From Escherichia coli (GTDB lineage: Bacteria; Pseudomonadota; Gammaproteobacteria; Enterobacterales; Enterobacteriaceae), in the NCBI RefSeq assembly GCF_044324875.1, contig NZ_CP172186.1: DNA of 64,000 nt; one strand, written 5' to 3'. The notes beneath the pieces were generated by a model that worked only from the letters and a program-made list of their open reading frames with translations, did not search any database and was not told the origin of the DNA. Shown here one piece after another: positions 5,175-59,237 of the stretch (within the stretch, counting starts at the first letter, position 1; every line of letters starts with the position of its first letter). The translations under genes and the position numbers were made by a program.

Positions 5175-6487
5175 TGTGCTTTTTCCTTGTCGGCGGGATG
5201 CTGTTTTTCGGTGGTTTCGGTGGTTTCGGTGGTTTCGGTGGTTTCGGTGGTTTCGGTGGTTTCGGTGGTTTCACCAGTGTCAGTGTCTTCGTCGTTATCA
5301 TGGCGGCGGGGTATCACGTCATCCGTGAGTGACCAGCGGGTCCTGATCTGACGTTTACGATCGCGATCTGGCTGAGGTTCGTCCCATATCAGGCCCAGCC
5401 CCAGCATGTCCCGTCGAAGCCCTTCAATGGCCTCTTCCACACAGGGTTCCGGGCAGGGGAGGCCGAGACGGCTGGCTTCATTTTCTGCCCGGGCAACGGC
5501 CACCACGCCGGCCCCTTCGATGAAGCCTTTTGTGGTGTTTGCCCGGTGAAGGGCATAGAAGAGCGTCCGGTCAACGCCCTTGAGCCACAGCCAGTTCGGA
5601 GGCGTCAGGCGCAAATCATGTGCGTAAAGCCAGACCAGACCGCTGCGAACGTAACGGTGCTGCCTGAGCCACTTTTGTGCGCCTTCTGTTTTGATGACCC
5701 GGATAAAGGCGTTTCTGGCCAGTGAATACACCGGCGTGCTGAAACGCCCCTGGTCCCGTTTACTTTTGAGCCTGCAGGAGAGATTGAGGTTGTTCATCAG
5801 GGCTACCGCTGCTTTCCGGTCACCGAGGAAGAACTGCAGGCCAAAGATGGCAAAGAGCGCTTTTTCATGTGGGGCCATGTCTTTCCAGCTGGTCAGTGGT
5901 TGCCCCAGTTGCGCCATGAAGCACTGGCGTGTGGACGCAACATCGAGCTGCATGTTGCGGATAAGGTTGTTCTGCTCCACAAAGGCTTCGGGGGTTAGTG
6001 CGACACGGCGCTCGGGACGTTTTTGTCCGTGGAAGAGTCTGTTGTTGTCTCCGTCAGCCAGAACGGGGGCGATCGCCGGTGACAGAGCTGAAAAAATATG
6101 GGGCAGTGTGTGGATATTCAGTGGCCTGCGGGTAAAACGGGGCTGGGCCGGATGGTGAAACCACATCCACAGAAAGCCGAATGTCATGGGAAGCAGAATC
6201 AGCCAGAGGATCCCCACTGTCCGGGACATAACATCCAGCCACTGGCTGAAAGTGATGGTTGCCGCGTTGTTAGCAGTGATGGCCAGCAGGTTGTAACGGG
6301 GGACGGCAAAGTTGTGAAAGGGCCCCCAGTCAATCATGCCCCACAGTGTGTGCAGGATCAGGCAGGAGGCGAAGACGATTTCAGGTAAAAAGCGCCAGAT
6401 GATAATCGCAAAGAGCAGGCATATGGCACCGACGATATACCATATAGCCATTGGATCTTCGGCGGCAGACGTCTGTTGGTAAGACAC
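5171..6487 (-). CDS. trbA: inner-membrane protein (TrbA-like, DotM/IcmP-like) with C-terminal (ETT)7 repeat tail
   Basis: 438 aa; several hydrophobic helices; C-terminus TGETTETTETTETTETTETTETTEKQ encoded by the 9-bp tandem repeat. Confidence 0.65.
   Translation of the reverse strand: MSYQQTSAAEDPMAIWYIVGAICLLFAIIIWRFLPEIVFASCLILHTLWGMIDWGPFHNFAVPRYNLLAITANNAATITFSQWLDVMSRTVGILWLILLPMTFGFLWMWFHHPAQPRFTRRPLNIHTLPHIFSALSPAIAPVLADGDNNRLFHGQKRPERRVALTPEAFVEQNNLIRNMQLDVASTRQCFMAQLGQPLTSWKDMAPHEKALFAIFGLQFFLGDRKAAVALMNNLNLSCRLKSKRDQGRFSTPVYSLARNAFIRVIKTEGAQKWLRQHRYVRSGLVWLYAHDLRLTPPNWLWLKGVDRTLFYALHRANTTKGFIEGAGVVAVARAENEASRLGLPCPEPCVEEAIEGLRRDMLGLGLIWDEPQPDRDRKRQIRTRWSLTDDVIPRRHDNDEDTDTGETTETTETTETTETTETTETTEKQHPADKEKAQ
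5207..5269. repeat. 7 perfect tandem copies of 9-bp unit ttcggtggt inside trbA
   Basis: Read directly from sequence; in-frame, encodes (ETT)n on minus strand. Confidence 0.95.
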
Positions 6488-6643
6488 GGGGATTCCTCCA
6501 TAGATGAATGGATAAATTTCGGGATTAAGTCGGGTGGCATGAATGCGAATCAGCGCCGGTAATAACCGGACAGGAATGAATTCAACAGGACATTTTTACA
6601 GAGAAGAGCGAACGGCAGAAGGTGGTGGGAGACAGGTACAAAA

Positions 6644-6680
6644 AAACCGACTGGTGAGGCCGGTTTTTTTGCGATTCCGG
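6644..6680. terminator. putative bidirectional intrinsic terminator (A7-CCG..CGG-T7 hairpin)
   Basis: aaaaaaaccgactggtgaggccggttttttt: short GC-anchored stem flanked by A-run and T-run; lies between IS21 end and trbA promoter region. Confidence 0.4.
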
Positions 6681-6797
6681 GGTGGAGTTGGTGGCTCTGA
6701 CCGGAGGAAGTCTCTTTTCAGCTAACAATGAGAGAGCTGTTGTGACAGGCAATGTAAGAGTAAGCAGCAGTGATTTCCTCCATTGACGGAGAAACGG

Positions 6798-6881
6798 ATG
6801 ATTAACCTGTTAATCATCGTTCTCAGGGCGGTTGTTGCTGTGGCTAACGCAGTGATAGCTCTCCGGGAACTGGTTGACTGA
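6798..6881 (+). CDS. candidate small hydrophobic peptide (27 aa, MINLLIIVLRAVVAVANAVIALRELVD)
   Basis: ATG preceded by GGAG at 6-nt spacing; start codon lies inside a 10-bp palindrome (gatgattaac-ct-gttaatcatc, 6797..6818); stable hairpin 6901..6930 downstream; below track size cutoff. Confidence 0.35.
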   Translation: MINLLIIVLRAVVAVANAVIALRELVD

Positions 6882-46822: not shown

Positions 46823-47352
46823 ATTAGGGTATCAGGTAGCACTGTTCTGACAGGAAAAATCGCAAATGGAGAACGACTACCTTTGCCGTCTGGTTTTTCT
46901 GCCAGCCAGTGTACCTGGAGCGTCAGCAATGCTGAAAACCCGCATGGCTGGAAGCCAAATTACTTCGCAGGTTCTGTTGCGACATATGATTCGAACAGGA
47001 TTGTGAAGTGTGGTTACTACGATGAATACAATTTTCACGGCGGTACAAACAGGAACGACCTGACGGGGAAATGTAGTTACATTGTGGTTTGCCAGTAAAT
47101 CACTTTGTCATTGGCAAATGGCATGTACAGTTATTTTTCCAATGATGTGTTCTGTCGTATCGCAATAGCCATACCAGGCATTATTGTTTACAGGTATTGA
47201 ACGGACAAGCCAGATAAAGCCAATTCCAGAGCTGCATTCTGCACCACCCCCGATCACCTTCTTACCCATTGGGCAGGTGGCAGTAGCACCAGGCCAGCGG
47301 AGTTTTGATGCTGTTACTTTGACGATTTCAATATCGCCTTTTCCTGCATTTT

Positions 47353-47371
47353 TCCACGAACCGGATTGGCA
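47353..47371 (-). repeat. shufflon 19-bp repeat (inverted; exact reverse complement of 46804..46822)
   Basis: Read directly. Confidence 0.9.
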
Positions 47372-47379
47372 CGGAGGCC

Positions 47380-47398
47380 AGTGCCAATCCGGTATCTG
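47380..47398 (+). repeat. shufflon 19-bp repeat gtgccaatccggtatctgg
   Basis: Read directly; 8 bp from previous repeat. Confidence 0.9.
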
Positions 47399-47848
47399 GA
47401 CAACGACAAAAATGAACTTCACTACCAGTACATACAATATCGGGAAAAATACTCGTAATCTGAGCATTGGCGTACATGCGTACTGCTCGTGGACATACCT
47501 TAATGGCTCGCCTTTTGGTGGTTTTCAGCAGATATACGCCGACCAAAACAAGGTTTGGTATGTGAATAATTATGCGTGGGGAAATTATGAGTCCGGTGGC
47601 ACAATTACAGTGACATGCCTCAACCTTCCTGGTGCCGGAATCTAACCAAAAGGGCAACAGTAAGCATCGACGTGCTCTTCATCAATACCATCTCCGATGC
47701 CGTACATTCTTGTACCTGTCATGACGTACCCGGCAGGGCACTGAATCGGCTTGTAATAAATAGAACCTCCACTTCTGCCACCGATAAAATGTGCGGAGGT
47801 CGCTTCATACCATTTACAGGCAGAATAGTTCACTTTATTGCCTCCAAG

Positions 47849-47867
47849 CCACAAACCGGATTGGCAC
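47849..47867 (-). repeat. shufflon 19-bp repeat (inverted)
   Basis: Read directly. Confidence 0.9.
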
Positions 47868-47875
47868 TGGCCTCC

Positions 47876-47894
47876 GTGCCAATCCGGTGTGTGG
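47876..47894 (+). repeat. shufflon 19-bp repeat gtgccaatccggtgtgtgg
   Basis: Read directly; 8 bp from previous repeat. Confidence 0.9.
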
Positions 47895-48270
47895 GTTGGC
47901 TTTGAATCCTACCCTGTGGGAAGCCCTATCCCGTGGCCATCTGCCACTCCTCCACAAGGCTATCTGTTGATGAACGGCCAGTCGTTTTCCTGTTCCCGGT
48001 ATCCTCAGCTTGCCCGTGCTTATCCTGGCTGTAAATTGCCCGATCTGCGCGGTGTTTTTATCCGTGGCTGGGATAACGGGAAGGGACTTGATGGTGATCG
48101 GAACAGACAACTCCTGAGTTATCAGGCCGATCAATCAGGCGTCTATCACGAACGTGGCGGATGGCTGAAAGGGCATCATAGTGGTATGCCATACTGGGCA
48201 CAGGGGAGTACCACAGAAATGCGTCCCAAAAATATTGCATTCAACTACATTGTTAAAGCCAGCTAGGGAC

Positions 48271-49605
48271 TCACATCTGATAGGCATACACAGAGAAAAC
48301 ACCGTTACCACAGGCGTAATTTTGTGTTGGTCTGGAGATGATTTGATATGACGCTCCCACTGGCACGGCAAATGAAATAAATGCTGTCTTTCCGTAGGAG
48401 GGGTTATTGCTGGCATTCATACCAATGAAAGCGCCGTTCACATAGCCCTGAAGATTTGATGTGTTGGCGCAATCACCGCCACCGGCACCATTTCCACCGG
48501 AAGCGTACACAAACAAAGTTCCTCTGCCGTTATTTCTCCCGTTAAATGTTCCCCGGTGAGAACCCAGATTGCTGTAACTTCCGTCAGGTGCACCAATCGT
48601 TCGCCACACACCGGATTGGCACGAAAGTATTGCCCCTTTACTGTCGCGGCCTACAAGTCCGTCCGGTGAGCAGGAAGTACCTGCGGTGGCTGTTTTATCC
48701 AGCTGTAAATACTCACCCGTGGAAAGACGCCCCTCAGACCGGACAGTTCCACCACTGACTTTTCCTCCTTTGAGCTCTCCTTCGGTTGTGATCCCTTTGT
48801 TGTTAACAGCACGTATCCATTGGCTGTCCGTCATGGTGAAACCGCCTCCGTGCGTCGTGTTCATCCACCCCTTGTTGTTTCTGGTGATAAGCCAGCCGTC
48901 TTCGCTGGTTATATCGCCTTTCACCGTGGCTTTCTGACCATTGAGGTTACCGGCGTTATTGATGTCATTTCCGCCCATGTTGATAGCTGTGTGCATCTGG
49001 TTCAGCTCTGATCTCCCCGGGACCTGGAAACGATACAACCTGTCGCTTTCCTGCAGATCATCACCCGTCATGACGACGGCAATGTGACCTGCCGAACAGG
49101 TGAGTCCGTAATCCCCCGGTTTGTCTGTCCAGGCGCCGAATGCGCCGGTTGCTGTTCCGTTTTTACCAATATAACCACCCAGCCCGGGAAGCTGTCCTGC
49201 CACACTGCGCAGACCATCTTCTTTGATATTCTGCCCCCCTGTTGAGCAGGTCAGGGCTTCAAGACGTCCTGTAGTCTGGTTACGGCGGATACCCGTGATA
49301 TAACTCTGCCCAAACGGAGAATGATTAAATCCCTGTTTCAGGTATCCCTTGCGAATCAAATCATCGGCTGTAAAGTTTGCCGGAAGGCTGCCGTTGTGCA
49401 GAGTGGCATTGTTATCGGCAATGTAATTTCTGGCTGCGGTATTGTAGGCATCTGCATGAGAAGCAGCACTCTGGTAAAGCTGTTCATTCAGCCAGTTTTC
49501 TATTTCGGAATAAATCAGCGGCGTGGCGATACCAATCACTATCAGTCCCGCCAGTATTTCAAGCAGAATAAAACCTTTGTCGTCATCGTGTCTGAACTTT
49601 TTCAC
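48271..49605 (-). CDS. pilV: thin-pilus minor pilin/adhesin PilV (current shufflon configuration)
   Basis: Prepilin-like N-terminus KGFILLEILAGL; constant region joins variable C-terminus at the 19-bp repeat. Confidence 0.9.
   Translation of the reverse strand: MKKFRHDDDKGFILLEILAGLIVIGIATPLIYSEIENWLNEQLYQSAASHADAYNTAARNYIADNNATLHNGSLPANFTADDLIRKGYLKQGFNHSPFGQSYITGIRRNQTTGRLEALTCSTGGQNIKEDGLRSVAGQLPGLGGYIGKNGTATGAFGAWTDKPGDYGLTCSAGHIAVVMTGDDLQESDRLYRFQVPGRSELNQMHTAINMGGNDINNAGNLNGQKATVKGDITSEDGWLITRNNKGWMNTTHGGGFTMTDSQWIRAVNNKGITTEGELKGGKVSGGTVRSEGRLSTGEYLQLDKTATAGTSCSPDGLVGRDSKGAILSCQSGVWRTIGAPDGSYSNLGSHRGTFNGRNNGRGTLFVYASGGNGAGGGDCANTSNLQGYVNGAFIGMNASNNPSYGKTAFISFAVPVGASYQIISRPTQNYACGNGVFSVYAYQM
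48604..48622 (-). repeat. shufflon 19-bp repeat (inverted) inside expressed pilV
   Basis: Encodes the CQSGVW junction of the current PilV. Confidence 0.9.
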
Positions 49606-50309
49606 GTGAATATCTCCGAAGTGCGGAAAACGGAATCAGGGAGGAGGGTTAGTGCATACAGTGATGCGCAGAGAAACGGGGCGAACGGCAGTGCCTGCTG
49701 ATGTCTGTGACGGCAGAAGAGGAGGATAAACAGAAATGCCCCGGAAGCTGCGGCGGTGATTAGCAGCGGCGTGTGTTGTGGCTGTGTCCACATTGCAATT
49801 CCTGCTATCAGGAATACATCACCAAGGCCGAGTGCTTCTGTTCCTTTTGCCGTTATGAAAAACTGCCGTAGCAGGTATGTCATGCCGAACCAGAGTGATG
49901 CGTTGAGGAGGCTGTATGTGAGCTCCTCCAGGCTGTACCTGAACGCTGCCCCCAGAACAATCAGTGAAAGCGTGAATATCCGGGGAAGCCGACAGACGGC
50001 GATGTCCGTCAGCGTCATTACAGTTAATAATCCCGTCAGAATGGAAAGGAATAACAGCCCCGTGGCTTCAACACCATATGCGCCGTTGAGGCTGACACTC
50101 ACTATGGCCAGAAGGCAACACACGTACACCACCGGCCTGGGCGGCCGGGTGTCGTGTACTGCTGACAGGTAGAGAGCGGCGGTGATGTATGCAATATAAA
50201 GAATAACCGCCAGGATGATGATTATTATTGTCATGCTCAGTAATGCGCTCACCGTCACCTCGTATTTATTAATATTGTCTGAAATACCGGTTGTGGATTT
50301 TTCGGGCAT
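49602..50309 (-). CDS. pilU: prepilin peptidase PilU
   Basis: 235 aa polytopic membrane protein; position between pilT and pilV. Confidence 0.75.
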   Translation of the reverse strand: MPEKSTTGISDNINKYEVTVSALLSMTIIIIILAVILYIAYITAALYLSAVHDTRPPRPVVYVCCLLAIVSVSLNGAYGVEATGLLFLSILTGLLTVMTLTDIAVCRLPRIFTLSLIVLGAAFRYSLEELTYSLLNASLWFGMTYLLRQFFITAKGTEALGLGDVFLIAGIAMWTQPQHTPLLITAAASGAFLFILLFCRHRHQQALPFAPFLCASLYALTLLPDSVFRTSEIFT

Positions 50310-50745
50310 ATATCATGCGCCGGGCTGTGTTATTTTTGCTGAAACCGGCGTTATAGCTGCCAAGGCATTCCCAGTTAACGCCGCAGCGTTGAAAATGGCG
50401 GGCCAGTATCCAGGCACCGGTATGAATATTCAGGCAGGGCTTTTTAAGCAGTTCATCCTTGTTTTTAATGACGCCCAGTTTTTTCAGTTCAGGAATATGC
50501 ACTGAATTAATCTGCATTATTCCGTAATCCGTACTGATAATTTTTCCGGATTTGTTTTTATTGTGATTTATCGCAGTGGCGACCAGGCCGCTTTCCTGCT
50601 GTGCAATGGTTTTAAGAAGCTCAGGCGCAATCAGGTAACGTTTTCCGGCCTGAATAAAACAGGAATCGAGATGATTATTATTCATCACAGATGCGATTGA
50701 TGTGTGACTGAATAAAAGCAGGACAGAGAGATATAACCATTTCAT
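50269..50745 (-). CDS. pilT: lytic transglycosylase PilT
   Basis: Signal peptide; SLT-like motif ..AQQESG..YGIMQIN.. Confidence 0.75.
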   Translation of the reverse strand: MKWLYLSVLLLFSHTSIASVMNNNHLDSCFIQAGKRYLIAPELLKTIAQQESGLVATAINHNKNKSGKIISTDYGIMQINSVHIPELKKLGVIKNKDELLKKPCLNIHTGAWILARHFQRCGVNWECLGSYNAGFSKNNTARRMIYARKIHNRYFRQY

Positions 50746-50803
50746 TATGATAATCCCGGCAGTGACAGCATCCTCTGGTATTTAAGGATGCTGTCCGGAA
50801 ACA

Positions 50804-51340
50804 TTAGCTGTTTGTTTCAAGGGTGATGTTATTTTTGTCGTTACTACATACTGTTACGGGATCCACAGTAGCCGGGGCGGTATTCATGATTTTGGTAAAC
50901 ATGGATGAACTGCGCAGGCTGTTAATGAGTTCCACGCAATTTTCTTTCGGTACATTATTGCTGGTAATCGTATAACCATACTTATCTGCTGTTGCCTTAA
51001 TGGTGACATCACCGCCCCAGGCATTTTTGGCCTTGTTACCACCGGCGATCATATCGGCCGGCAGGGAACCACTCTGCGTCAGCGTTTTGATATAATCACT
51101 GCTGGTATATTGTCCCTGGAACTTGTACTGCTTCATTTTGGTTGCAATGGTCTGCAGGTTTTTCACTTCGCGCTGGTTATCACTGGATGACATGGTACTG
51201 GACATCTGACTCATTGCGAGAACAACCACAATACCGATAATAATCAGTGCGCCGGCAACTTCCAGTAAGGTTAAACCTTTATCCTCCTCTTTCTCTTTTT
51301 TTAAAGCAAAATAAGAATAAAGACATGATCTGAAGTTCAT
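50804..51340 (-). CDS. pilS: type IV prepilin PilS (thin-pilus major pilin)
   Basis: Leader followed by GLTLLEVAGALIIIGIVVVLA prepilin cleavage/hydrophobic segment. Confidence 0.8.
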   Translation of the reverse strand: MNFRSCLYSYFALKKEKEEDKGLTLLEVAGALIIIGIVVVLAMSQMSSTMSSSDNQREVKNLQTIATKMKQYKFQGQYTSSDYIKTLTQSGSLPADMIAGGNKAKNAWGGDVTIKATADKYGYTITSNNVPKENCVELINSLRSSSMFTKIMNTAPATVDPVTVCSNDKNNITLETNS

Positions 51341-51389
51341 ATATCACTCCTGGTTTATGGGATGTTTCAGAAATATTCTGTATGCGGGA

Positions 51390-52556
51390 TTATTGTTTCA
51401 GCATGTCGCTGATACTGTAGATGGCAGATATCATGTTAAGAATAAAAAAGAAGACAAAACCTCCTGATATACCGGTAATAATTAATCCAATTCGTTTTAC
51501 CCGTTTTTTTGCTTCCTCCAGCCACTGATCGGCATAGAGTGCCATGGTTGCCACACTGTCCTCCCTTTCGGAGTTCAGGAGCAGTTTATTGATGCATATT
51601 CTGGACGGAAAATCGTAACCGGAATTTCGCATTGCTGTGGCCAGATTCTGACCGGATAATACATGTTTTCGTATTGCCTGAATTCTCTCCTTTAACCATT
51701 TATTCTTTTCTGCACCTTTTTCCATTCGGAGCAGCGCCTGCGAAAGAGGAATATTAATCTGCAGCATGGATGAAATACTGAACAGATAATTCACCCCGTG
51801 TAAGGTCTGATACAGTGACCAGGGGGGAGCCTTGTCCAGCATCCTCCGGCCGGGGCCGGTATACCGGCTGAATGAAAAACGGATCAGAAGCGTCAGGGCG
51901 AAAATGGTCCCACAGAGCCAGAATCCGTACCCGATGAAAAATTCCGACATGCCGGCAAGCAATTTCATCTGGAATGACCATTTATCTTCTGAAGCAAACG
52001 CACTGACGATGGGGATGATACGGGTATGGGCGTTGTACATATTCACCACACAGAGCGAAAGCAGCAGAAGGGGGTAGAGGCAGACGGCAATGAGGCTGGA
52101 TGTCATTTCCCGCCGGGCTTTAACGGTTCTGGCCACCTGGAAAAGGGCGTCGGCAATATTTCCGCGCTCTTCCCCGTTTCTGATTAACGTGGCTTCCTCC
52201 GGTGGCACCCAGGTTAACAGGGCACCGGATAACATGCCGCTGGCTTTGATGGAATCGATGCATTCTTTTGCCAGAAAATACATGCCGGATGTGCCTTTCT
52301 TTTCACCAAAATCGGTTTCGATCTCGCAGAGAAATTCGAGTGCACGCAGGGACGGCGTTCCGTCACGTATCATGCCGCCCAGGGCTTCGTAGAACTCCAC
52401 CCGGTTCAGGGCAAAGGTTTTTCTGGCTATCCAGACAGTCAGTGCTGTCAGCTCAATGTCGGTGTTGTTGAGTTTTTCCAGAAATCTCATGTCAGTGCAG
52501 CAGCGTATAGCTGTCCTCGTCGATGGGAGAGATGTAATGGGCCGCCAGCGGATCAA
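51390..52556 (-). CDS. pilR: type IV pilus inner-membrane platform protein PilR (GspF/TadB-like)
   Basis: 388 aa polytopic membrane protein downstream of the ATPase. Confidence 0.7.
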   Translation of the reverse strand: MIRWRPITSLPSTRTAIRCCTDMRFLEKLNNTDIELTALTVWIARKTFALNRVEFYEALGGMIRDGTPSLRALEFLCEIETDFGEKKGTSGMYFLAKECIDSIKASGMLSGALLTWVPPEEATLIRNGEERGNIADALFQVARTVKARREMTSSLIAVCLYPLLLLSLCVVNMYNAHTRIIPIVSAFASEDKWSFQMKLLAGMSEFFIGYGFWLCGTIFALTLLIRFSFSRYTGPGRRMLDKAPPWSLYQTLHGVNYLFSISSMLQINIPLSQALLRMEKGAEKNKWLKERIQAIRKHVLSGQNLATAMRNSGYDFPSRICINKLLLNSEREDSVATMALYADQWLEEAKKRVKRIGLIITGISGGFVFFFILNMISAIYSISDMLKQ

Positions 52557-54000
52557 CCTGCCCGCTGTTGATTTTTCCCAGCAGATGCTGATTTCGTGTC
52601 ATGCCGCCCAGCTCCCGGTGCCAGTATGTTCTGGCCTCAATACGCCCCTTTTCCCGGTACAACTGGAAAAAACGGGCATCCGGGGAGATGACTTCTGCGA
52701 TCACCGTTCGTCCTGTCACGCCACGCCAGCAGTGCGGGCAGCCTTCATGATTTCGCAGATATACCTGGTCCGGGTTGCAGACGCTTTCCACCAGGTGCCG
52801 TTCATCATCCGTGCGCTCGGTAGCCACCTCATGCCAGGGGCGACGGCAGTGCGGACATATCAGCTGAACCAGACGCTGGCTCAGCAGGCCAATGAACAGT
52901 TGCGGGTCGGCAATCATCCTGGCCTGTACCCCCTCCATCTCAAGACGTTCGAGGATGTTAATCGGGTCGTTCGCATGGATGGTGGTCAGCATCAGATGGC
53001 CGGTCATGGCGGCTTTTATTGCCGTAATGGCGGAATCGTGGTCGCGGATTTCACCGTTCAGGATCCCGTCGGGGTCAAGACGCAGTGCCGATTTGATGGA
53101 GTCCACCCAGCCCTGCGCGGTATCCATGACGGCGGTCTGAATGGCACCGGGAATACGCCCTTCCGGCGGGGATTCGATGGTGAACAGCCTGCGACGGGGA
53201 AGAAGAATATCGCCGGTGTTGTTGAAGCCGTACTGTTCAAGGTACGCCGCAGAGGCGGTTCTCAGCGTGGTGGATTTTCCTGAGCCGGTGGGGCCTGAGA
53301 GCGTGATAATGCCTTCAGGGCGCTGCAGAATGCGGCGAAGAGTGCGCTCCTGGTCAGGGTGATAGCCCAGCATACTGAAGGTCGGGATTTGCTGACTGTC
53401 ATCCTTGATCAGACGGAGCACAGCATATAGGCCGCCCACACAGGGGTAGTGGGAGTAGCGTGCACCAAACAGACCGGCCAGTTTCAGATACTGCTCTGAA
53501 AGACGTGCATCCTGAGGCACCCCGGGATCAAACTGTGTGCCCTTGATAACATCGGTCATGCCGGAATAGGTGGCCCCCAGTAATTCGAGGCCTTCTTCTT
53601 TCCGGAGGATATCGAGCACTTCCAGTTCGCCGTGAACCCGGGCTTCCACATAGGTGAAGTCCGTGTTGTCTCGTCCCGGGGTCATATGAAGGTCTGAGGC
53701 ACCAAGAGAGGCAGAATGGCGGATATAGCCGAGCATTTTCTGCTGTACCGGGTTAATGACGCTTTCATCACCGGCGGTTGTGGTGTCCTGTCTGAGGCGG
53801 GCTATCACATCCAGGGTGGTGAATTCAAAGTCTCCCACACGCCCCTGATGACGTGCGCGCAGGCGGGTCAGATATTCCTGGACGGCACGCAGATGTTTTT
53901 TTCCCTCCACGACCCTGACCCGCAGATGACCGGTTTTATCTGTGTCGATAGCCACATAATCCAGAATGTCATCCGGTGGCAGGTCTGCAGGCTCCAACAT
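52492..54000 (-). CDS. pilQ: type IV pilus assembly ATPase PilQ
   Basis: Walker A LSGPTGSGKSTT; Cys-rich C-terminus; 502 aa. Confidence 0.8.
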   Translation of the reverse strand: MLEPADLPPDDILDYVAIDTDKTGHLRVRVVEGKKHLRAVQEYLTRLRARHQGRVGDFEFTTLDVIARLRQDTTTAGDESVINPVQQKMLGYIRHSASLGASDLHMTPGRDNTDFTYVEARVHGELEVLDILRKEEGLELLGATYSGMTDVIKGTQFDPGVPQDARLSEQYLKLAGLFGARYSHYPCVGGLYAVLRLIKDDSQQIPTFSMLGYHPDQERTLRRILQRPEGIITLSGPTGSGKSTTLRTASAAYLEQYGFNNTGDILLPRRRLFTIESPPEGRIPGAIQTAVMDTAQGWVDSIKSALRLDPDGILNGEIRDHDSAITAIKAAMTGHLMLTTIHANDPINILERLEMEGVQARMIADPQLFIGLLSQRLVQLICPHCRRPWHEVATERTDDERHLVESVCNPDQVYLRNHEGCPHCWRGVTGRTVIAEVISPDARFFQLYREKGRIEARTYWHRELGGMTRNQHLLGKINSGQVDPLAAHYISPIDEDSYTLLH

Positions 54001-54096
54001 AAGGCCTCCTTACGGGCAGCGGCGCCCGGAAAATATGTTTTCTGTTATTAAGCGAGGGAAATAATCAGTTCTTCTGCGGAGAGAATCTGGACATTT

Positions 54097-54771
54097 TCAG
54101 CACAGGCTTAACAGTGTAAAAATGATTACGCCTCCAAAAGCGAATAACAGGGGAATGTTTTTCTCCGGCTGTGTTGATCTCAGCGTTAATACCGGTGTGG
54201 CGAGAGCGTAAAAAATAATACCTGCGGTATAAATAAAATAAGGTGTGATGCCGGACAGATTACATACACTGGCGAATATCATAAGCATGACGGCAACTAC
54301 CGATAAAATAATGGAAGTATTCTTCCATTCACCAGATGGTGTAAGTGAAATGATATCGCCATCCTGTTTATAGTTCGTGTTCAGCTTCAGGAAATGACGG
54401 ATATCTTTCAGCGTGTTCAGTTTCTGCTGGATATCTTCCACAAGTTCCTGTCTGTCGGTTTTTTCACGGAGCAGCTGGAATTTTGTCTCCCTCAGTACAG
54501 ATATAATACGGTCCACCTGGCCGGGGGAGGGATAGTAATGATGTTCGAGCATCCACCGGATATCGGCGATTAACCGGTCAGTTACCGGTGTATTACCGTT
54601 GTTAATGAGAGGTGTTTCGTGCATCCACTGAAATATGCGGTAGATATGTTGCTTAACAAAAATAAAATCATCGGTGGTTTTATTCTCCAGCATGAGATAT
54701 ATCCCGTCGAGTGTTAATAATAAAACGTCCCGGGTGTGAGGTGATTTGTGATGTATTGTACGGAATATCAT
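54097..54771 (-). CDS. hypothetical membrane protein (224 aa): soluble N-domain plus 3 C-terminal TM helices; not a recognised pil gene
   Basis: Track ORF; TM segments SIILSVVAVMLMIFASV, ITPYFIYTAGIIFYALATPVL, IPLLFAFGGVIIFTLLSL; lower GC than flanks. Confidence 0.5.
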   Translation of the reverse strand: MIFRTIHHKSPHTRDVLLLTLDGIYLMLENKTTDDFIFVKQHIYRIFQWMHETPLINNGNTPVTDRLIADIRWMLEHHYYPSPGQVDRIISVLRETKFQLLREKTDRQELVEDIQQKLNTLKDIRHFLKLNTNYKQDGDIISLTPSGEWKNTSIILSVVAVMLMIFASVCNLSGITPYFIYTAGIIFYALATPVLTLRSTQPEKNIPLLFAFGGVIIFTLLSLC

Positions 54772-54788
54772 TTCTGCACTGTAATCGT

Positions 54789-55343
54789 TTACGCAGGTGA
54801 TATATCACACCAGAGTAAATACAGCGGAATGAAGCTGTAGAGTGACCAGAAAAGCCCGAGGGGATCTTTTGCCCACAGGCATAAGAATGTCAGTCCGGTG
54901 CACCATGCGCCGGCAAGTGCCGCGCATAATTCAGCGCCTCCGGAATTGCCGCTCTTCATCATATAACAGAGCGCGATCAGCAGTGGGATAATGAAGACGA
55001 GCGGCAGGACAAAGGATTCGGCTGCGGATATCCATTCCCGGTAACGCCAGCGGTCGTTTAATCTGTCGGCATCATATTTCAGACAGTTGCTCAGGAACGC
55101 CAGATCGTTCATGAGGGGGGCGTCCTGGCCATACTGCGCCGCGAGGCGCATTCTGGCACCCCACAACCGGGCACTCAGGGCACGGAGTTGTGCCGGGGTG
55201 ACCTGTTTTCCCCGACAAAGTTGTACCTGTAATTGTGTTGCCTCGTGGACAATATCTGTGTGGTTCACCCCATATTCTGCAGCGGCTGTTTCCAGGTCAC
55301 GGATGATCAGGCTGAGCCAGGATATCAGTTCACTGATGTTCAT
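54789..55343 (-). CDS. hypothetical membrane protein (184 aa): soluble N-domain plus 3 C-terminal TM helices; not a recognised pil gene
   Basis: Track ORF; TM segments FVLPLVFIIPLLIALCYMM, LCAALAGAWCTGLTFLCLWA, LFWSLYSFIPLYLLW. Confidence 0.5.
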   Translation of the reverse strand: MNISELISWLSLIIRDLETAAAEYGVNHTDIVHEATQLQVQLCRGKQVTPAQLRALSARLWGARMRLAAQYGQDAPLMNDLAFLSNCLKYDADRLNDRWRYREWISAAESFVLPLVFIIPLLIALCYMMKSGNSGGAELCAALAGAWCTGLTFLCLWAKDPLGLFWSLYSFIPLYLLWCDISPA

Positions 55344-55391
55344 TGTCGTTCATCCTTTTGTACGGACAGCCGCCTGTACTGGCGGCCGGTT

Positions 55392-55844
55392 TCATGGTCG
55401 CAGGGTTTTTCTGATGCCGGACTGCTCCAGTACCACACTGTCCGGTGTGATTTTCTCCACGAGATAAGGGGTTCCGGGGATGTTCTGGCCCGTCTTCACA
55501 TCGGTGATGTGTCCACCCGAAAGTTCTATCCGGGCGCTCAGCTGAGGCTGTACACCAAATATTTCTGTCAGACGGGGGGATGTCGCCGTCGACGGGGCAG
55601 TCGGGATGGCGGACGTGCTTTCCTGCGGACGACCGGGCTCTGCGGGAATACCCTGCTCCAGCATGCGCAGTTCATGACGGATTTTCTCTCTCGCCAGCAT
55701 GGCTTCATACAGGGCTGTTTCGTCCTGTATCCGCTCAATCTGCAGTTGCCGGGGACTCTGTTCCTCTGCGTTTCCGGTTGTGGCCATTGCCGTTGCCGGT
55801 AACAGCAGCGCTGAAACCAGAAGGGCTTTTGTTTTAGCGTGCAT
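55392..55844 (-). CDS. pilP: thin-pilus assembly protein PilP
   Basis: 150 aa with signal peptide; size/position match. Confidence 0.6.
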   Translation of the reverse strand: MHAKTKALLVSALLLPATAMATTGNAEEQSPRQLQIERIQDETALYEAMLAREKIRHELRMLEQGIPAEPGRPQESTSAIPTAPSTATSPRLTEIFGVQPQLSARIELSGGHITDVKTGQNIPGTPYLVEKITPDSVVLEQSGIRKTLRP

Positions 55845-57129
55845 AATATTTACCTGTAAATTGATAGTGGAAACGACCGTTCTCCAGTTGTCGTGTGACA
55901 GAGATAAAACGGACAGAAGGCGCCTTCAGACGTTCAACCAGCTGGTATGCCGGGAGTAGCGTCTGTATCTGAAGGTCATACTCTTTCCACGGAGGCTGGA
56001 TAATATTTCCGTTTTCATCGGTGACGCTGTTACTGACCTCCTGCCAGTCCAGCGTCAGTGGCATTGACTGAGCAAGCGTGGTCAGTTGTTCTTGCAGGAC
56101 AGAGCTTTCCGGCAGAGCATCAACGTCGACGGGATGTTCAGGCAGGCGGAAGCTGACTGGCAGGCCAATGCCGCCGGTCTTTCCTTCCGGCATCACAATA
56201 AAGGGGCGGGTACCCGTCATATCACTGATGCGCCGGATGAAGTCAGTCACTGTCGCGCCAGCTGTATTAGTGTACGAGGCGCGAAGATTGCCGCTGCCGC
56301 CGTCAGTTGAACATTCAGCCAGCGAATAACGCCATCCGGAGGCAGACAGTGGCAGTGACGTCCATATGTCAGCACATCCCTGGATAAAGGCGTCGGTTTC
56401 GGGGAGTCCGGGCCAGGGGGGACTGATTTGTTCCTCTGTGACCTGTCGGGCAGCTGCTGCCTGCGCGGCTTGTTCAGTCTTCCACCGTTCATAATACTGC
56501 CAGCCGTACCATGCAGCGCCGAGAAGGGCGATGATCAGCGAGACAGTGATGAACTGCGCTCCCCGGGATACCGGATTCAGGCGCGCGGCAGCCGGATGTT
56601 TACCAGAGCCGGTCAGGGTGGACAGCGGCAGGGCCTGATTCTGATCGCCTGCTGAAAATGCCACCGGTTCATAGCGTGTCCAGCCCTGCTCCGGTTCGGT
56701 GTTGATGGAAAGAAAGGTATCCCGGGCTTCACGGACCTCTTCTCCGCTTCCCACCAGGTCACTGACGAGAACACCGTCGACAGCGGAAACAAAGCTGTAG
56801 CGCGGTGTTTCTCCGGGTAACGTCAGTTCCGTGATGGCATAGCCGCCCTGTTCAAGCAGTGGCAGGATCAGCAGGGCGAGGGAGAAGCACTGACGGGGTT
56901 TTCCGGGCAGTATGCGGCGACTGGCTGTGGCCACCATGGTGTGGGTATCGGCATCTTCATTACTGAGATACTGACAGGCCAGGAAAAGGTCGGCTTTCTG
57001 TGCCCGGGCAAAGTCGCGGGCATGCCGGTACTGTGAGGGCAGTGTTTTCCATTCCAGACCGGCCAGAAACACATTGCGCCCTGCCGTCAGCGGAAACACC
57101 TGCCGCTCTGTCGGTGAAATATCCGTCAC
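55834..57129 (-). CDS. pilO: thin-pilus assembly protein PilO
   Basis: 431 aa; size/position match. Confidence 0.6.
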   Translation of the reverse strand: MTDISPTERQVFPLTAGRNVFLAGLEWKTLPSQYRHARDFARAQKADLFLACQYLSNEDADTHTMVATASRRILPGKPRQCFSLALLILPLLEQGGYAITELTLPGETPRYSFVSAVDGVLVSDLVGSGEEVREARDTFLSINTEPEQGWTRYEPVAFSAGDQNQALPLSTLTGSGKHPAAARLNPVSRGAQFITVSLIIALLGAAWYGWQYYERWKTEQAAQAAAARQVTEEQISPPWPGLPETDAFIQGCADIWTSLPLSASGWRYSLAECSTDGGSGNLRASYTNTAGATVTDFIRRISDMTGTRPFIVMPEGKTGGIGLPVSFRLPEHPVDVDALPESSVLQEQLTTLAQSMPLTLDWQEVSNSVTDENGNIIQPPWKEYDLQIQTLLPAYQLVERLKAPSVRFISVTRQLENGRFHYQFTGKYYAR

Positions 57130-57149: not shown

Positions 57150-58769
57150 TCAGATGATATTGGGCGTGATCAGCACCACGAGAATGGTGTCGTCGTTTTC
57201 ACTGTTGATCCCACCGCCAAGACCGAAGAATCCCGGCGTGCCTACACCCTGTTTTCCGCTGCGACGTCCTGACTGCTGGAAGCCACTGATAATGACCGTC
57301 TGCCCGGATTTCAGATCCACGGTCTGATTGATGGTTTTCAGATCCACATTCGGCAGCTGGGCTTTACTTCCACCGCTCTCATAATTCTCAATAACCGGTT
57401 TGTCGGAGAGACTCATGGAATAGAGCAACTGCAGTGTCTGTGAGTCCGGGAGAATGAACGGCAGAAGGGTCATGTTAAAACCGGTGGTGATGGTGGCCGC
57501 ATTCAGGGAGGTGGATGAGCCGACATTGGCAGTGGTATCCGTCGTCACACTCTCGATGTAACTCTGCTGATTGGCGATCTGCATTGGCACCGGCGTCAGG
57601 TTTTTGGTGACGGCAGAGTTCTGGGTCACCACACTGACATCCCCCTGGGAAGACAATGCTTTCAGGAAGGCTTTTGAACCGGTGAGTTTACCGTCCACAA
57701 TGGAAACACCACCTGTGATGGCATCACTGGCTGCACTGGTGAATGTGCTGCCGAGACTCAGTCCCAGCGTTCTGTCGCTGAAGACTGCGTTCCAGTCGAT
57801 ACCGGCCTGCTCATTGCGGGTTTTCCGGATACTCAGAATTTCCACATTCAGCACCACCTGACGTTTCATCTCTTCATTGCGTTTTTCAATGAATGCCCGG
57901 ACCGTTTCCAGAACCTGTGGATTATCTGTGACGGTGATAAAGCCCGTGGACATGAACATGCGTCCGATACCCGGGGTCAGCATTGATGTGACCGCATTTT
58001 TCACATCCTGATACAGCGCAGACTTCATATCCACGGTGGTGGTCTGGGTATTGCTGGCATCACCGGAAATGGCATCTGATGCACTGCCTCCTGATGAGCC
58101 GTTTGAGGACATGGTGCCGCTGACCACAGTGGCGTTATAGGTCACCTGACTGTCCATATAGGTGATGGGGAAGGTCTGTGTCTCGAGATAATAGAAGATG
58201 ATATGCGAGCCGTCATAGCGCCAGGATATACCGAGACGGGAGGAGACCGCATTCAGCAGGGTCGTCAGGCCGGAGGCATTCAGTTCAGACAGTGCTGCGG
58301 TATTTCCCGGCAGACGGGATGGTGGCGTGTCAGATGCGCCAATGGCGGCAAGGGGGACCATGCCGCTCGCATCTGGTGGGGGTAACGCGCCCTGGATTTG
58401 TTGTGTGCTGCCGGTTGTGGATGTATTCAGGTATGTCAGTACATCAGGTGTGATCCGTACCGGAATATGGCAGCTTTCCGTGATTCGCTGAACCACCTGC
58501 TGAAGGGTGATGCTCTGACGGGTATGAATGACAATGGGACAACCGGGAACGGTTTTGCCGGTGTTTTTATCCATGACCGGACGGGGATTGATCCATTGTC
58601 GTGATGATTCCTTAACAACCGGCGTCCGGGTTCGCAGATCAGACATCATTTCCCGTGCCCGTTGTTGTTCCGCAACGGCTTCCTTTCTTGTGCTCTCAAG
58701 CTCTCTGTAACTGGCACAGCCCTGTAACAGAGCGGCGGCAATCATAATGGCAAGAATTTTTTTATTCAT
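57150..58769 (-). CDS. pilN: secretin-like outer-membrane lipoprotein PilN
   Basis: Lipobox LLQGCAS; 539 aa; Gly/Ser/Thr-rich beta-rich C-terminal domain. Confidence 0.7.
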   Translation of the reverse strand: MNKKILAIMIAAALLQGCASYRELESTRKEAVAEQQRAREMMSDLRTRTPVVKESSRQWINPRPVMDKNTGKTVPGCPIVIHTRQSITLQQVVQRITESCHIPVRITPDVLTYLNTSTTGSTQQIQGALPPPDASGMVPLAAIGASDTPPSRLPGNTAALSELNASGLTTLLNAVSSRLGISWRYDGSHIIFYYLETQTFPITYMDSQVTYNATVVSGTMSSNGSSGGSASDAISGDASNTQTTTVDMKSALYQDVKNAVTSMLTPGIGRMFMSTGFITVTDNPQVLETVRAFIEKRNEEMKRQVVLNVEILSIRKTRNEQAGIDWNAVFSDRTLGLSLGSTFTSAASDAITGGVSIVDGKLTGSKAFLKALSSQGDVSVVTQNSAVTKNLTPVPMQIANQQSYIESVTTDTTANVGSSTSLNAATITTGFNMTLLPFILPDSQTLQLLYSMSLSDKPVIENYESGGSKAQLPNVDLKTINQTVDLKSGQTVIISGFQQSGRRSGKQGVGTPGFFGLGGGINSENDDTILVVLITPNII

Positions 58770-58799: not shown

Positions 58800-59237
58800 C
58801 TAATTCATCCAGAGGATGACGTGATCGGGGATCACTGACGGAAGTGTGATGGAAAGCGCTCTGCCGGCAGTGTCCAGCAGTCGGCCGTTTTCCACCCTGC
58901 CGAGCAGAGCAGAGTCATTACTCTGTTCCCTGAGCGCGGCCATCAGGCCCGGGGTTTCTGTAGCCCAGACAAAAACACGTTGCTGGCTGATGATATGACT
59001 GACGGTATCCGTCCCGGGAATCCCGAGCTGAGCGGATGTCAGCCGCCCTCCGGCTGTCCGTCGTTCCGGATGCTGATGCAGGTAATCATTGATGGCGTTC
59101 ATATAACGAATGAACGTTGCTGCCTGTTGTGTGTTTTCTGCGGCCTGATGACGGTGTTCGCTGCGGGAGAGCTGACTGGTGAACCAGAAATTGCCGGTGG
59201 TCGTGATGACCATGATGAACACGATGAACCAGCCCAT
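58800..59237 (-). CDS. pilM: thin-pilus assembly protein PilM
   Basis: 145 aa, N-terminal TM; size/position match. Confidence 0.6.
   Translation of the reverse strand: MGWFIVFIMVITTTGNFWFTSQLSRSEHRHQAAENTQQAATFIRYMNAINDYLHQHPERRTAGGRLTSAQLGIPGTDTVSHIISQQRVFVWATETPGLMAALREQSNDSALLGRVENGRLLDTAGRALSITLPSVIPDHVILWMN

What the first reader, a model, noticed from the sequence alone, without database searches (positions are those of the whole stretch)
54097..55343. Two membrane-protein genes inserted between pilP and pilQ of an otherwise canonical thin-pilus operon
All other genes from pilL to pilV match the known IncI1 order, with clear anchors (PilN lipoprotein, PilQ ATPase, PilR platform, PilS prepilin, PilT transglycosylase, PilU peptidase, PilV). 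Between the 150-aa pilP and pilQ sit two extra same-strand ORFs of 184 and 224 aa. Both have a soluble, helical N-terminal domain followed by three C-terminal TM helices and no pilus-assembly signature, and the second has lower GC than its flanks. This looks like a two-gene accessory module riding the pil operon promoter, possibly exclusion, immunity, a membrane-acting defence effector or a pilus modulator.
Basis: partly seen in the sequence, partly recalled or inferred. Interest (0 to 1): 0.62.

Follow-up and report, generated by a model that had tools for sequence, protein, structure and literature searches.

The report
Uncharacterised membrane-protein cassette inside pilus operon
Two extra genes between pilP and pilQ of this IncK2 plasmid's thin-pilus operon are real, encode two related inner-membrane proteins of a family nobody has characterised, and belong to a hypervariable cassette so far seen almost only inside conjugation-machinery operons, which suggests a conflict or protection role rather than a pilus part.

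Summary
Two same-strand ORFs (minus strand, 54789-55343 and 54097-54771) lie between pilP and pilQ, where related plasmids have only a 10-100 nt gap.

Three corrections:
- The plasmid is IncK2, not IncI1. Its PilQ is only 44% identical to IncI1 PilQ.
- The second protein is probably 198 aa (start 54693), not 224 aa.
- The two proteins are distant paralogues (hhalign probability 98.5%). Each has a cytoplasmic helical bundle followed by three C-terminal transmembrane helices.

The pair is a reduced form of a three-gene cassette, A, antisense B, C. That cassette, or C with or without B, occupies seven positions in three kinds of mating-machine operon:
- the thin type IVb pilus operon;
- F-type traU|trbC;
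- I-type tra clusters.

In F-type plasmids the flanks are 95-96% identical in DNA right up to the traU stop and the trbC start. The cassette proteins there are only 22-32% identical. In pECOED-type plasmids a RelE/ParE pair has replaced most of the cassette.

None of the three proteins matches Pfam, NCBIfam, PADLOC, PHROGs or PDB, and fold searches were uninformative.

My best reading (about 0.35) is a barrier or immunity module at the inner membrane, made together with the mating organelle. The function is untested. Interest is moderate to high.

The parts
54789..55343 (-). orfA, 184 aa. Predicted inner-membrane protein with a cytoplasmic helical N-domain (motif GK.VTPAQLR.L.A.LW..RM, then RW.YR.W before TM1), about three TM segments, and a conserved LWAKDP.GLFWS.YS motif.
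   Evidence: ORF; RefSeq CDS WP_021532699; family alignments A3/A5; hydropathy; AAGGA 9 nt upstream of the ATG; GC 0.541.
54097..54693 (-). orfC, 198 aa (the maximal ORF reaches 54771, giving 224 aa). It is a paralogue of orfA, with a cytoplasmic helical bundle (motif YPSPGQVD..I..LR..KF...RE) and three TM helices (122-146, 152-172, 180-197).
   Evidence: RefSeq start; nearly all homologues start at M27; no upstream ATG in L024; AlphaFold, pLDDT 84.7; hhalign A versus C, probability 98.5%, E 2.7e-15; GC 0.429.
54042..55343 (-). The inserted segment relative to an empty IncK2/Z pilP-pilQ junction, about 1302 bp. It runs from the ATG of orfA to 55 nt past the orfC stop. Only about 6 nt of overlap or microhomology at the joint; no target duplication or inverted repeat was seen in the junction alignment.
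   Evidence: blastn breakpoints against L005/L006; junction alignment.
54694..54788 (-). The orfA-orfC spacer, 95 nt. This is where the antisense gene B sits in full cassettes. The B-less joint is homologous to that of a chromosomal allele (L024).
55367..55388 (-). Stable hairpin just after the pilP stop (GGCCGCC-AGUACA-GGCGGCU) with no U tract. It belongs to the backbone flank on the left of the insertion and is not an intrinsic terminator.
   Evidence: -19 kcal/mol, z -2.96; also present at the empty site.
54001..54041 (-). Backbone leader of pilQ (small hairpin GGGCGCCGCUGCCC plus AAGGAGG), immediately right of the insertion.
55392..55844 (-). pilP, the left flank.
   Evidence: TIGR03021, E 5e-31.
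52492..54000 (-). pilQ, a GspE/PilB-type ATPase, the right flank. From here to pilV the operon is closer to a chromosomal element (88.7%) than to the IncK2/Z plasmid L005 (81.4%).

Best explanation
SHOWN
- The pair is a lineage-specific insertion into an IncK2 thin-pilus operon.
- It encodes two paralogous small proteins, each with a cytoplasmic helical bundle and about three C-terminal TM helices.
- They belong to two uncharacterised families confined to Enterobacterales.
- The pair is a reduced form of a three-gene cassette, A -> <- B C ->.
- Wherever enough context is available, the cassette lies inside operons for conjugative mating organelles. At the F-type traU|trbC site it behaves as a sharply bounded, hypervariable allele.

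INFERRED
- orfA and orfC are transcribed by read-through from the pil promoter, so they are made only when the thin pilus is made.
- They insert N-in into the inner membrane and probably act together as a hetero-oligomer.
- They are dispensable for pilus biogenesis.

MECHANISM I COMMIT TO (about 0.35)
The complex is a conflict or protection device coupled to expression of the mating organelle. It forms a barrier at the inner membrane against something that exploits the pilus or T4SS as a door. The most likely target is pilus-dependent phage entry. Unwanted incoming transfer (an exclusion-like effect) is the alternative.

Antisense B, present in full cassettes, would be its partner or regulator, expressed when the operon is off. 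IncK2 keeps only the A and C halves.
For: Insertion and polymorphism.

Paralogy and architecture.

Real, constrained genes.

Three-gene cassette, with B often lost or frameshifted.

Location inside mating-machine operons (seven positions, three machine types):
- pilP|pilQ in IncK2;
- pilO|pilP in a chromosomal integrative element;
- traU|trbC in F-type plasmids of E. coli, Salmonella and Klebsiella;
- traF..|traH;
- traK|DUF5710;
- traR|..traU;
- pilV|traH.

Hypervariability between conserved flanks:
- L011 against L023: TraU 95.9% and TrbC 96.7% identical, but A 31.8% and C 26.2%.
- L013 against L023: TraU 95.3%, but A 29.5%, B 31.0% and C 25.5%.
- DNA identity of 95-96% stops exactly at the traU stop and resumes 1 nt before the trbC start.

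Site turnover: pECOED-type plasmids carry a RelE/ParE pair in place of most of the cassette.

Divergence of orfA: dN/dS is 0.64 against the closest chromosomal allele. By eye, the differences look concentrated in one cytoplasmic helix (alignment).

Expression: no internal promoter or terminator of note, and the essential pilQ-pilV genes lie downstream.

Pilus not required: pil operons without the pair are the large majority (2740 PilQ-bearing plasmids, against 114 with the module).
Against: - There is no experimental or homology evidence for any activity. PADLOC, PHROGs, Pfam, NCBIfam and PDB give no hit.
- There are no homologues in 50,697 phage genomes, which is neutral at best.
- Co-transcription, topology and A-C interaction are all inferred.
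- Frequent decay of B, and sometimes of A or C, fits dispensable cargo equally well.
- One B-C pair sits on short contigs next to toxin-antitoxin genes, with no visible tra context.
- In one clade of I-type systems a C-family gene keeps a fixed position after traR. That looks more like a resident machine accessory than cargo.
Confidence: 0.35

Rival explanations
1. Orphan immunity genes of a toxin/immunity (addiction-type) cassette. B would be a membrane-anchored effector, and A and C its paralogous, cognate inner-membrane immunity proteins. IncK2 lost B and kept the immunity pair.
For: - B is the first component to decay. It is absent in the window, L011, L021 and L024, and frameshifted in L003, L017 and L018.
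- All three proteins diversify together between allelic types.
- A toxin-antitoxin pair occupies the same site in pECOED.
- A B-C pair lies beside HigB and Phd genes.
- B has an invariant polar C-terminal motif (SHL...E...LN..YGG.TR.R...KH.N) that could be catalytic.
Against: - B has no recognisable toxin fold or family, and its model is poor (pLDDT 65).
- B is antisense to A and C rather than co-transcribed with them.
- B's conserved domain is shared across alleles, whereas polymorphic toxins usually vary there.
- C-family genes occur alone, without B, in several I-type clusters.
Confidence: 0.2
2. Neutral or selfish hitch-hiking cargo with no role in conjugation. The gaps inside long transfer operons would simply be permissive, well-transcribed and co-transferred landing sites.
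For: - Other small cargo nests in the same kinds of gaps: RelE/ParE at pilP|pilQ, a ParE-like gene at traR|traC, and an HNH endonuclease at trbC|traN.
- The distribution is patchy and pseudogenes are frequent.
- The GC step along the cassette is foreign to its hosts.
Against: - Purifying selection over long distances.
- The cassette holds the same traU|trbC site across alleles as divergent as 22-30%.
- Almost all contexts with enough flanking sequence are transfer operons, across three machine types.
- No recombinase or transposase travels with it.
Confidence: 0.2
3. Auxiliary structural or regulatory subunits of the mating machines, for example inner-membrane platform accessories that tune pilus or T4SS assembly or dynamics.
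For: - They are always co-located and co-oriented with assembly genes.
- In one clade of I-type systems a C-family gene holds a fixed slot after traR, where IncI1 has traS/traT.
- The inner-membrane topology with a conserved cytoplasmic motif would suit docking to a cytoplasmic ATPase.
Against: - Absent from most functional relatives: IncI1, IncI2, IncK1 and a pKpQIL-like IncFIIK plasmid.
- The same family serves three unrelated machines.
- Extreme allelic divergence next to 95% identical partners is not what a docking subunit shows.
- No similarity to any named Pil, Tra or Trb family.
Confidence: 0.15

Closest known systems
Entry-exclusion determinants of conjugative elements (F TraS, IncI ExcA, SXT Eex). 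Named from established knowledge, not from any homology found here.
   Same: They are small inner-membrane proteins encoded inside transfer regions. From prior knowledge, their alleles diverge strongly between otherwise conserved tra operons, which defines specificity groups. Here A/B/C are 22-32% identical beside TraU at 95%.
   Different: There is no sequence similarity: the HMMs find nothing in an IncI1 excA/traY region. The IncK2 and F-type hosts already carry their own exclusion genes. The same family occurs with three different machines, so a machine-specific partner (TraG or TraY) is unlikely. Here the unit is a paralogue pair plus an antisense gene rather than a single gene.
Non-essential ORFs nested in the F tra operon, including the antisense-oriented artA (recalled from the F-plasmid literature, not tested here), and the orfX genes of pED208 (bioRxiv 10.1101/2023.12.05.570194).
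   Same: They are small genes of unknown function embedded between essential transfer genes. One of them (artA, like B here) lies on the opposite strand. They are dispensable for transfer.
   Different: No homology: NCBIfam holds the F Tra/Trb families and gives no hit. F itself was not examined. A pKpQIL-like IncFIIK plasmid lists traU and trbC as consecutive genes. The present cassette is polymorphic and is shared with I-type and type IVb pilus operons.
RelE/ParE toxin-antitoxin cargo at the same pilP|pilQ site in pECOED-type IncK2/Z plasmids.
   Same: It occupies the same intergenic slot and is a small accessory module riding on the plasmid. It replaced most of the cassette and left a 71-codon remnant of orfA.
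   Different: It is a known family with soluble proteins, it lies on the opposite strand, and it has its own expression signals.
IncI1 (R64-type) thin-pilus proteins PilI-PilV.
   Same: The same operon and the same strand. The flanking genes pilL-pilV follow the R64 order.
   Different: orfA and orfC match none of PilI, PilJ, PilK or PilL, nor any NCBIfam or Pfam Pil family. They are absent from R64-type operons.

Membership tests
Core type IVb thin-pilus (Pil) proteins of I-complex plasmids | Sequence homology to a named Pil family (PilI-PilV) | tested here: not met
   NCBIfam and Pfam give no hit for either protein. HMMs of both families score 3.2 bits or less on IncI1 pilI/J/K/L ORFs and find nothing else in the window.
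Core type IVb thin-pilus (Pil) proteins of I-complex plasmids | Present at this position in related pil operons | tested here: not met
   pilP and pilQ are contiguous in IncI1, IncI2, IncI-gamma/K1 and another IncK2/Z plasmid. 114 plasmids carry the module, against 2740 with a PilQ homologue.
Entry-exclusion proteins (TraS / ExcA / Eex type) | Small inner-membrane protein encoded in the transfer region | tested here: met
   Hydropathy, the AlphaFold model and the absence of a signal peptide indicate an N-in membrane protein. It lies inside transfer operons.
Entry-exclusion proteins (TraS / ExcA / Eex type) | Homology to a known exclusion protein, or covariation with a donor partner (TraG or TraY) | tested here: not met
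   No HMM hit on the IncI1 excA/traY region. No covariation with neighbouring TrbC or TraU. Covariation with TraG or TraY was not examined.
Entry-exclusion proteins (TraS / ExcA / Eex type) | Reduces plasmid entry when expressed in recipients | not testable with these tools
   Needs mating assays.
Known anti-phage defence systems | Match to a described defence protein model | tested here: not met
   PADLOC-DB gives no family at E up to 1 for either protein. The only PHROGs matches are non-significant (E 0.16 and 0.28). tblastn with orfC finds nothing in the phage collection.
Type II toxin-antitoxin modules | Two small co-transcribed genes with a recognisable toxin or antitoxin fold | tested here: not met
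   No Pfam or NCBIfam toxin or antitoxin hit. Both window proteins are membrane paralogues.
Named F-type Tra/Trb accessory proteins (TrbA, TraP, TrbD, TrbG and others) | Homology to the NCBIfam/Pfam model of a named Tra/Trb protein | tested here: not met
   NCBIfam gives no hit for A or C and only non-significant hits for B. In RefSeq the F-type copies are 'hypothetical protein' between annotated traU and trbC.
The A/B/C transfer-operon cassette defined here | An A-family and a C-family protein adjacent and co-oriented inside a mating-apparatus operon | tested here: met
   HMM E-values are 1e-73 (A) and 2e-66 (C) for the window ORFs. They lie between pilP and pilQ.
The A/B/C transfer-operon cassette defined here | Antisense gene B between A and C | tested here: not met
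   Only a 95-nt spacer is present, with no B HMM hit in the window. The same B-less joint occurs in L024.

The most novel reading that the evidence does not exclude
The A/(B)/C cassette is a previously unrecognised class of conjugation-coupled conflict system. It would be a polymorphic inner-membrane module switched on together with the mating organelle, with antisense B expressed when the operon is off. Its job would be to protect piliated donor cells against pilus-dependent phages, or to discriminate incoming transfer. It would have been exchanged as allelic cassettes among F-type, I-type and type IVb pilus operons of Enterobacterales.
Probability: 0.3. Interest if true: 0.8.

Novelty: new variant of a known kind. 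Interest (0 to 1): 0.6.

Why it matters
IncK2 plasmids are epidemic carriers of blaCMY-2 in poultry and humans. F-type plasmids of Klebsiella and E. coli are the main vehicles of carbapenemase and ESBL genes.

A conserved but unannotated membrane-protein cassette sits in the middle of their transfer operons. It is hypervariable between nearly identical flanks. That pattern points to an unstudied selective pressure acting on cells at the moment they display a mating pilus.

If the cassette is a barrier to pilus-specific phages or to competing transfer, two things follow:
- It bears directly on proposals to use male-specific phages against resistance plasmids.
- It would add a new kind of expression-coupled defence.

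If instead it is an assembly accessory shared by three unrelated machines, that would be equally unexpected.

Either way, the finding gives three orphan protein families a context and a set of cheap, decisive experiments.

Tried and rejected
1. Relocated or mislabelled Pil proteins: rejected. pilP and the pilQ ATPase were confirmed by NCBIfam, and RefSeq names the 431-aa gene PilO2. The A and C HMMs find nothing in IncI1 pilI-pilL or the tra/exc genes.

2. Spurious ORFs: rejected on conservation, RefSeq CDS calls and dN/dS.

3. Family or fold assignment led nowhere:
- Pfam, NCBIfam, PADLOC and PHROGs.
- PDB sequence profiles.
- Foldseek on AFDB50 gave only 'uncharacterized protein' from E. coli, Salmonella, Klebsiella, Erwinia and Serratia.

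4. Transposon-like insertion: the junction alignment showed no target duplication or inverted repeat. The repeat-finder call itself failed on a strand argument and was not repeated.

5. Structured RNA in or around the module: no Rfam match at E up to 1.

6. Phage origin: tblastn against the phage collection was empty.

7. Literature: six full-text searches and five papers read in part. These included the paper that defined IncK2 (PMC5350095), an IncFIIK transcriptome (PMC6286996) and the pED208/F swap study. None mentions these ORFs.

8. A remnant of B in the 95-nt spacer: the alignment shows only scattered short matches.

9. The 224-aa start of orfC: rejected in favour of 198 aa.
Full report
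WHAT IS THERE

The thin-pilus operon lies on the minus strand:

| Gene | Window coordinates |
|---|---|
| pilL | 59242-60312 |
| pilM | 58800-59237 |
| pilN | 57150-58769 |
| pilO | 55834-57129 |
| pilP | 55392-55844 |
| pilQ | 52492-54000 |
| pilR, pilS, pilT, pilU | 49602-52556 |
| pilV | 48271-49605 |

Between pilP and pilQ sit two same-strand ORFs. I call them orfA (54789-55343, 184 aa) and orfC (54097-54771 as the maximal ORF).

The replicon is not IncI1. The 1.4 kb segment is 99.7% identical to pTMSA1088 and to about 110 other E. coli plasmids typed IncK2/Z, MOBP, MPF_I, mostly from poultry. The gene order matches R64, but the IncK2 PilQ is only 44% identical to IncI1 PilQ, 65% to IncI2 PilQ, and about 87-94% to the sampled IncK2/Z and IncI-gamma/K1-typed relatives.

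IT IS AN INSERTION

pilP and pilQ are contiguous in IncI1 (10 nt), IncI2 (24 nt), IncI-gamma/K1 (about 100 nt) and another IncK2/Z plasmid (84 nt).

Against that last empty site, homology stops at window 55344, the base before the orfA ATG. It resumes at 54041, which is 55 nt after the orfC stop and 41 nt before the pilQ ATG. The insert is therefore about 1302 bp. The joint shows about 6 nt of overlap, and the junction alignment showed no target duplication or terminal inverted repeat.

The insert lies between two backbone hairpins. The one after pilP is stable (-19 kcal/mol, z -2.96) but has no U tract.

The site has three states:
- empty;
- orfA plus orfC, in 114 PLSDB plasmids and in 85 of 5426 complete E. 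coli genomes;
- in pECOED-type plasmids, a 71-codon remnant of orfA followed by a RelE/ParE pair on the opposite strand. One such plasmid was inspected; 17 records share the remnant signature.

THE GENES ARE REAL, AND orfC IS 198 aa

RefSeq annotates both genes as CDS nearly everywhere.

Homologues at 22-45% identity conserve distinctive motifs:
- orfA: GK.VTPAQ.R.L.A.LW..RM, then RW.YR.W, then LWAKDP.GLFWS.YS.
- orfC: (G)YP.P..V..I..LR.EKFR.VRE.G....IQ..I..LK.

dN/dS is 0.24 for orfC and 0.18-0.27 for both genes at long range. orfA against its closest chromosomal allele gives 0.64. By eye, the differences look concentrated in one cytoplasmic helix (alignment).

Nearly all homologues, and RefSeq, start orfC at M27 (window 54693). 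The upstream ATG is missing in the closest chromosomal allele. The protein is therefore most likely 198 aa, which leaves a 95-nt spacer after orfA.

GC is 0.541 for orfA and 0.429 for orfC, against 0.572 and 0.575 for pilP and pilQ. The same step (A 0.50-0.54, C 0.42-0.46, B 0.36-0.41) recurs in every replicon that carries the cassette.

ARCHITECTURE AND PARALOGY

Hydropathy and an AlphaFold model of orfC (pLDDT 84.7) give a helical N-terminal domain (residues 3-106) followed by three TM helices (122-146, 152-172, 180-197). There is no signal peptide, and the N-terminal domain holds 16 of the Lys/Arg residues. The predicted topology is therefore N-in.

Profile-profile comparison shows that orfA and orfC are distant paralogues: probability 98.5%, E 2.7e-15, 163 aligned columns. 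Cross-hits of the HMMs confirm this.

NO KNOWN FAMILY

Neither protein matches Pfam, NCBIfam, PADLOC or PHROGs at any useful threshold, nor any PDB sequence profile.

The families are small. The C family has 39 representatives at 50% identity among 1.84 billion proteins. The A family has 30 clusters.

HMMs of both families find nothing in IncI1 pilI-pilL, in the IncI1 tra/exc genes or elsewhere in the window. The proteins are therefore not displaced PilJ, PilK, TraS, TraT or ExcA.

THE WIDER CASSETTE

Distant homologues of both proteins always travel together. In most loci they flank a third gene, B, on the opposite strand. B is 224-276 aa, with N-terminal TM helices and a C-terminal domain carrying the invariant motif SHL...E...LN..YGG.TR.R...KH.N. 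B also has no family or fold match.

B is absent in the window, L011, L021 and L024, and is frameshifted in L003, L017 and L018. The B-less joint of the window is homologous to that of a chromosomal allele, L024. The loss of B therefore predates the IncK2 copy.

WHERE THE CASSETTE LIVES

| Position | Host element | Components |
|---|---|---|
| pilP\|pilQ | IncK2 plasmids | A, C |
| pilO\|pilP | E. coli chromosomal integrative element (integrase, TraI_2 relaxase, pilL-pilV) | A, B, C or A, C |
| traU\|trbC | MPF_F plasmids of E. coli, Salmonella and Klebsiella, including 55 IncFII-type (MPF_F) Klebsiella-group plasmids | A, B, C; some without B |
| after traF, before traH (DotD) | Salmonella diarizonae plasmid | A, B, C |
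| traK\|DUF5710 | MPF_I contig | B, C |
| after traR | MPF_I contigs | C, in one case with a short paralogue |
| pilV\|traH | MPF_I contigs | C alone |

In the chromosomal element, the cassette still carries the pilP 3' end on its left and the pre-pilQ leader on its right. A duplicated pilO-3'/pilP segment lies after it. This arrangement derives from a pilP|pilQ insertion followed by rearrangement.

One B-C pair lies on short contigs next to toxin-antitoxin genes, with no visible tra context. There are no homologues in the phage collection.

The window's operon is itself a recombinant whose joint lies at the module:
- pilL-pilP is 94.8% identical to the IncK2/Z plasmid L005 and about 74% to the chromosomal element.
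- pilQ-pilV is 88.7% identical to the chromosomal element and 81.4% to L005.

HYPERVARIABILITY

At traU|trbC, plasmids whose TraU and TrbC are 95-97% identical carry cassette proteins only 25-32% identical:
- L011 against L023: A 31.8%, C 26.2%.
- L013 against L023: A 29.5%, B 31.0%, C 25.5%.

DNA identity of 95-96% ends exactly at the traU stop codon and resumes one base before the trbC start. No detectable nucleotide similarity lies between them.

A pKpQIL-like IncFIIK plasmid lists traU and trbC as consecutive genes (PMC6286996).

This is the behaviour of a sharply bounded allelic cassette under diversifying selection or frequent exchange. From prior knowledge, it resembles the traS exclusion alleles of F-like plasmids. 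It does not look like a docking subunit of a conserved machine.

HOW IT MOST LIKELY WORKS

Shown:
- insertion;
- paralogy;
- membrane architecture;
- cassette membership;
- confinement to mating-machine operons;
- hypervariability;
- dispensability for pilus-bearing relatives.

Inferred:
- The pair is transcribed by read-through from the pil promoter. It has the same strand as the operon, only one weak promoter-like match and no convincing terminator on that strand, and the essential pilQ-pilV genes lie downstream.
- A and C act together in the inner membrane.

I commit, at about 0.35, to a conflict or protection module whose expression is coupled to that of the mating organelle. It would form an inner-membrane barrier to something that uses the pilus or T4SS as an entry route. 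Pilus-dependent phage is the favoured target, and exclusion-like discrimination of incoming transfer is the alternative.

Rivals:
- orphan immunity genes of a B-toxin cassette (0.2);
- neutral hitch-hiking cargo in permissive operon gaps (0.2);
- an auxiliary machine subunit (0.15).

None of these can be settled without experiments.

COMPARISON AND NOVELTY

The closest known things are entry-exclusion genes (similar placement and polymorphism, no homology), the non-essential nested ORFs of F-type tra operons, and the toxin-antitoxin cargo that replaces the cassette in pECOED.

Six full-text searches and five papers read in part gave no mention of these ORFs. That includes the paper that defined IncK2.

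I rate it a new variant of a known kind: a hypervariable accessory locus in transfer operons, built from three orphan protein families with an unusual A -> <- B C -> layout and a cross-machine distribution. Interest is 0.6.

Noticed in passing
window 60434-60829 (+) and 60830-61261 (-): Two low-GC (0.37-0.40), multi-TM ORFs of 131 and 143 aa lie back to back just upstream of pilL, where IncI1 has pilJ/pilK. The 131-aa ORF is 'hypothetical' in RefSeq; the 143-aa ORF has no CDS in the plasmid gene table used here. They are not related to orfA, orfB or orfC.
   Followed up: partly
window 46880-48270: Overlapping ORFs on both strands repeat the translated strings [11 protein letters not shown] and [11 protein letters not shown]. 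These are the shufflon repeats and alternative PilV C-terminal segments downstream of pilV.
   Followed up: no
L004 (pECOED, NC_011754) 5959-6865: At the same pilP|pilQ site, a 71-codon remnant of orfA is followed by a RelE/ParE toxin gene and a small partner gene on the opposite strand. The slot therefore turns over its cargo.
   Followed up: partly
L015 9817-9889 and 11951-12020 (E. coli chromosomal element): The pilO-3'/pilP-5' segment is duplicated on either side of the cassette, and the upstream pilP copy is internally deleted. A full pilP has thus been restored directly in front of pilQ, possibly to re-couple pilP and pilQ expression.
   Followed up: partly
window 48200-53701 against L015 and L005: The IncK2 pil operon is a mosaic. 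pilL-pilP is closest to other IncK2/Z plasmids (94.8%). pilQ-pilV is closest to a chromosomal integrative element (88.7% against 81.4%). The switch lies at the inserted module.
   Followed up: partly
L010 9826-10245; L021 864-1115: Other small cargo is nested in F-type tra operons: an HNH endonuclease ORF between trbC and traN, and a ParE-like gene between traR and traC.
   Followed up: no
window 50269-50309 and 52492-52556: pilT and pilU overlap by 41 nt. The maximal pilR ORF (TTG at 52556) overlaps the end of pilQ, whereas RefSeq starts pilR just after pilQ.
   Followed up: no
L025 7578-8045: In an MPF_I cluster, the C-family gene after traR is followed by a shorter paralogue of 144 aa (HMM E 8e-8). 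Tandem paralogue pairs of this family have therefore arisen more than once.
   Followed up: partly
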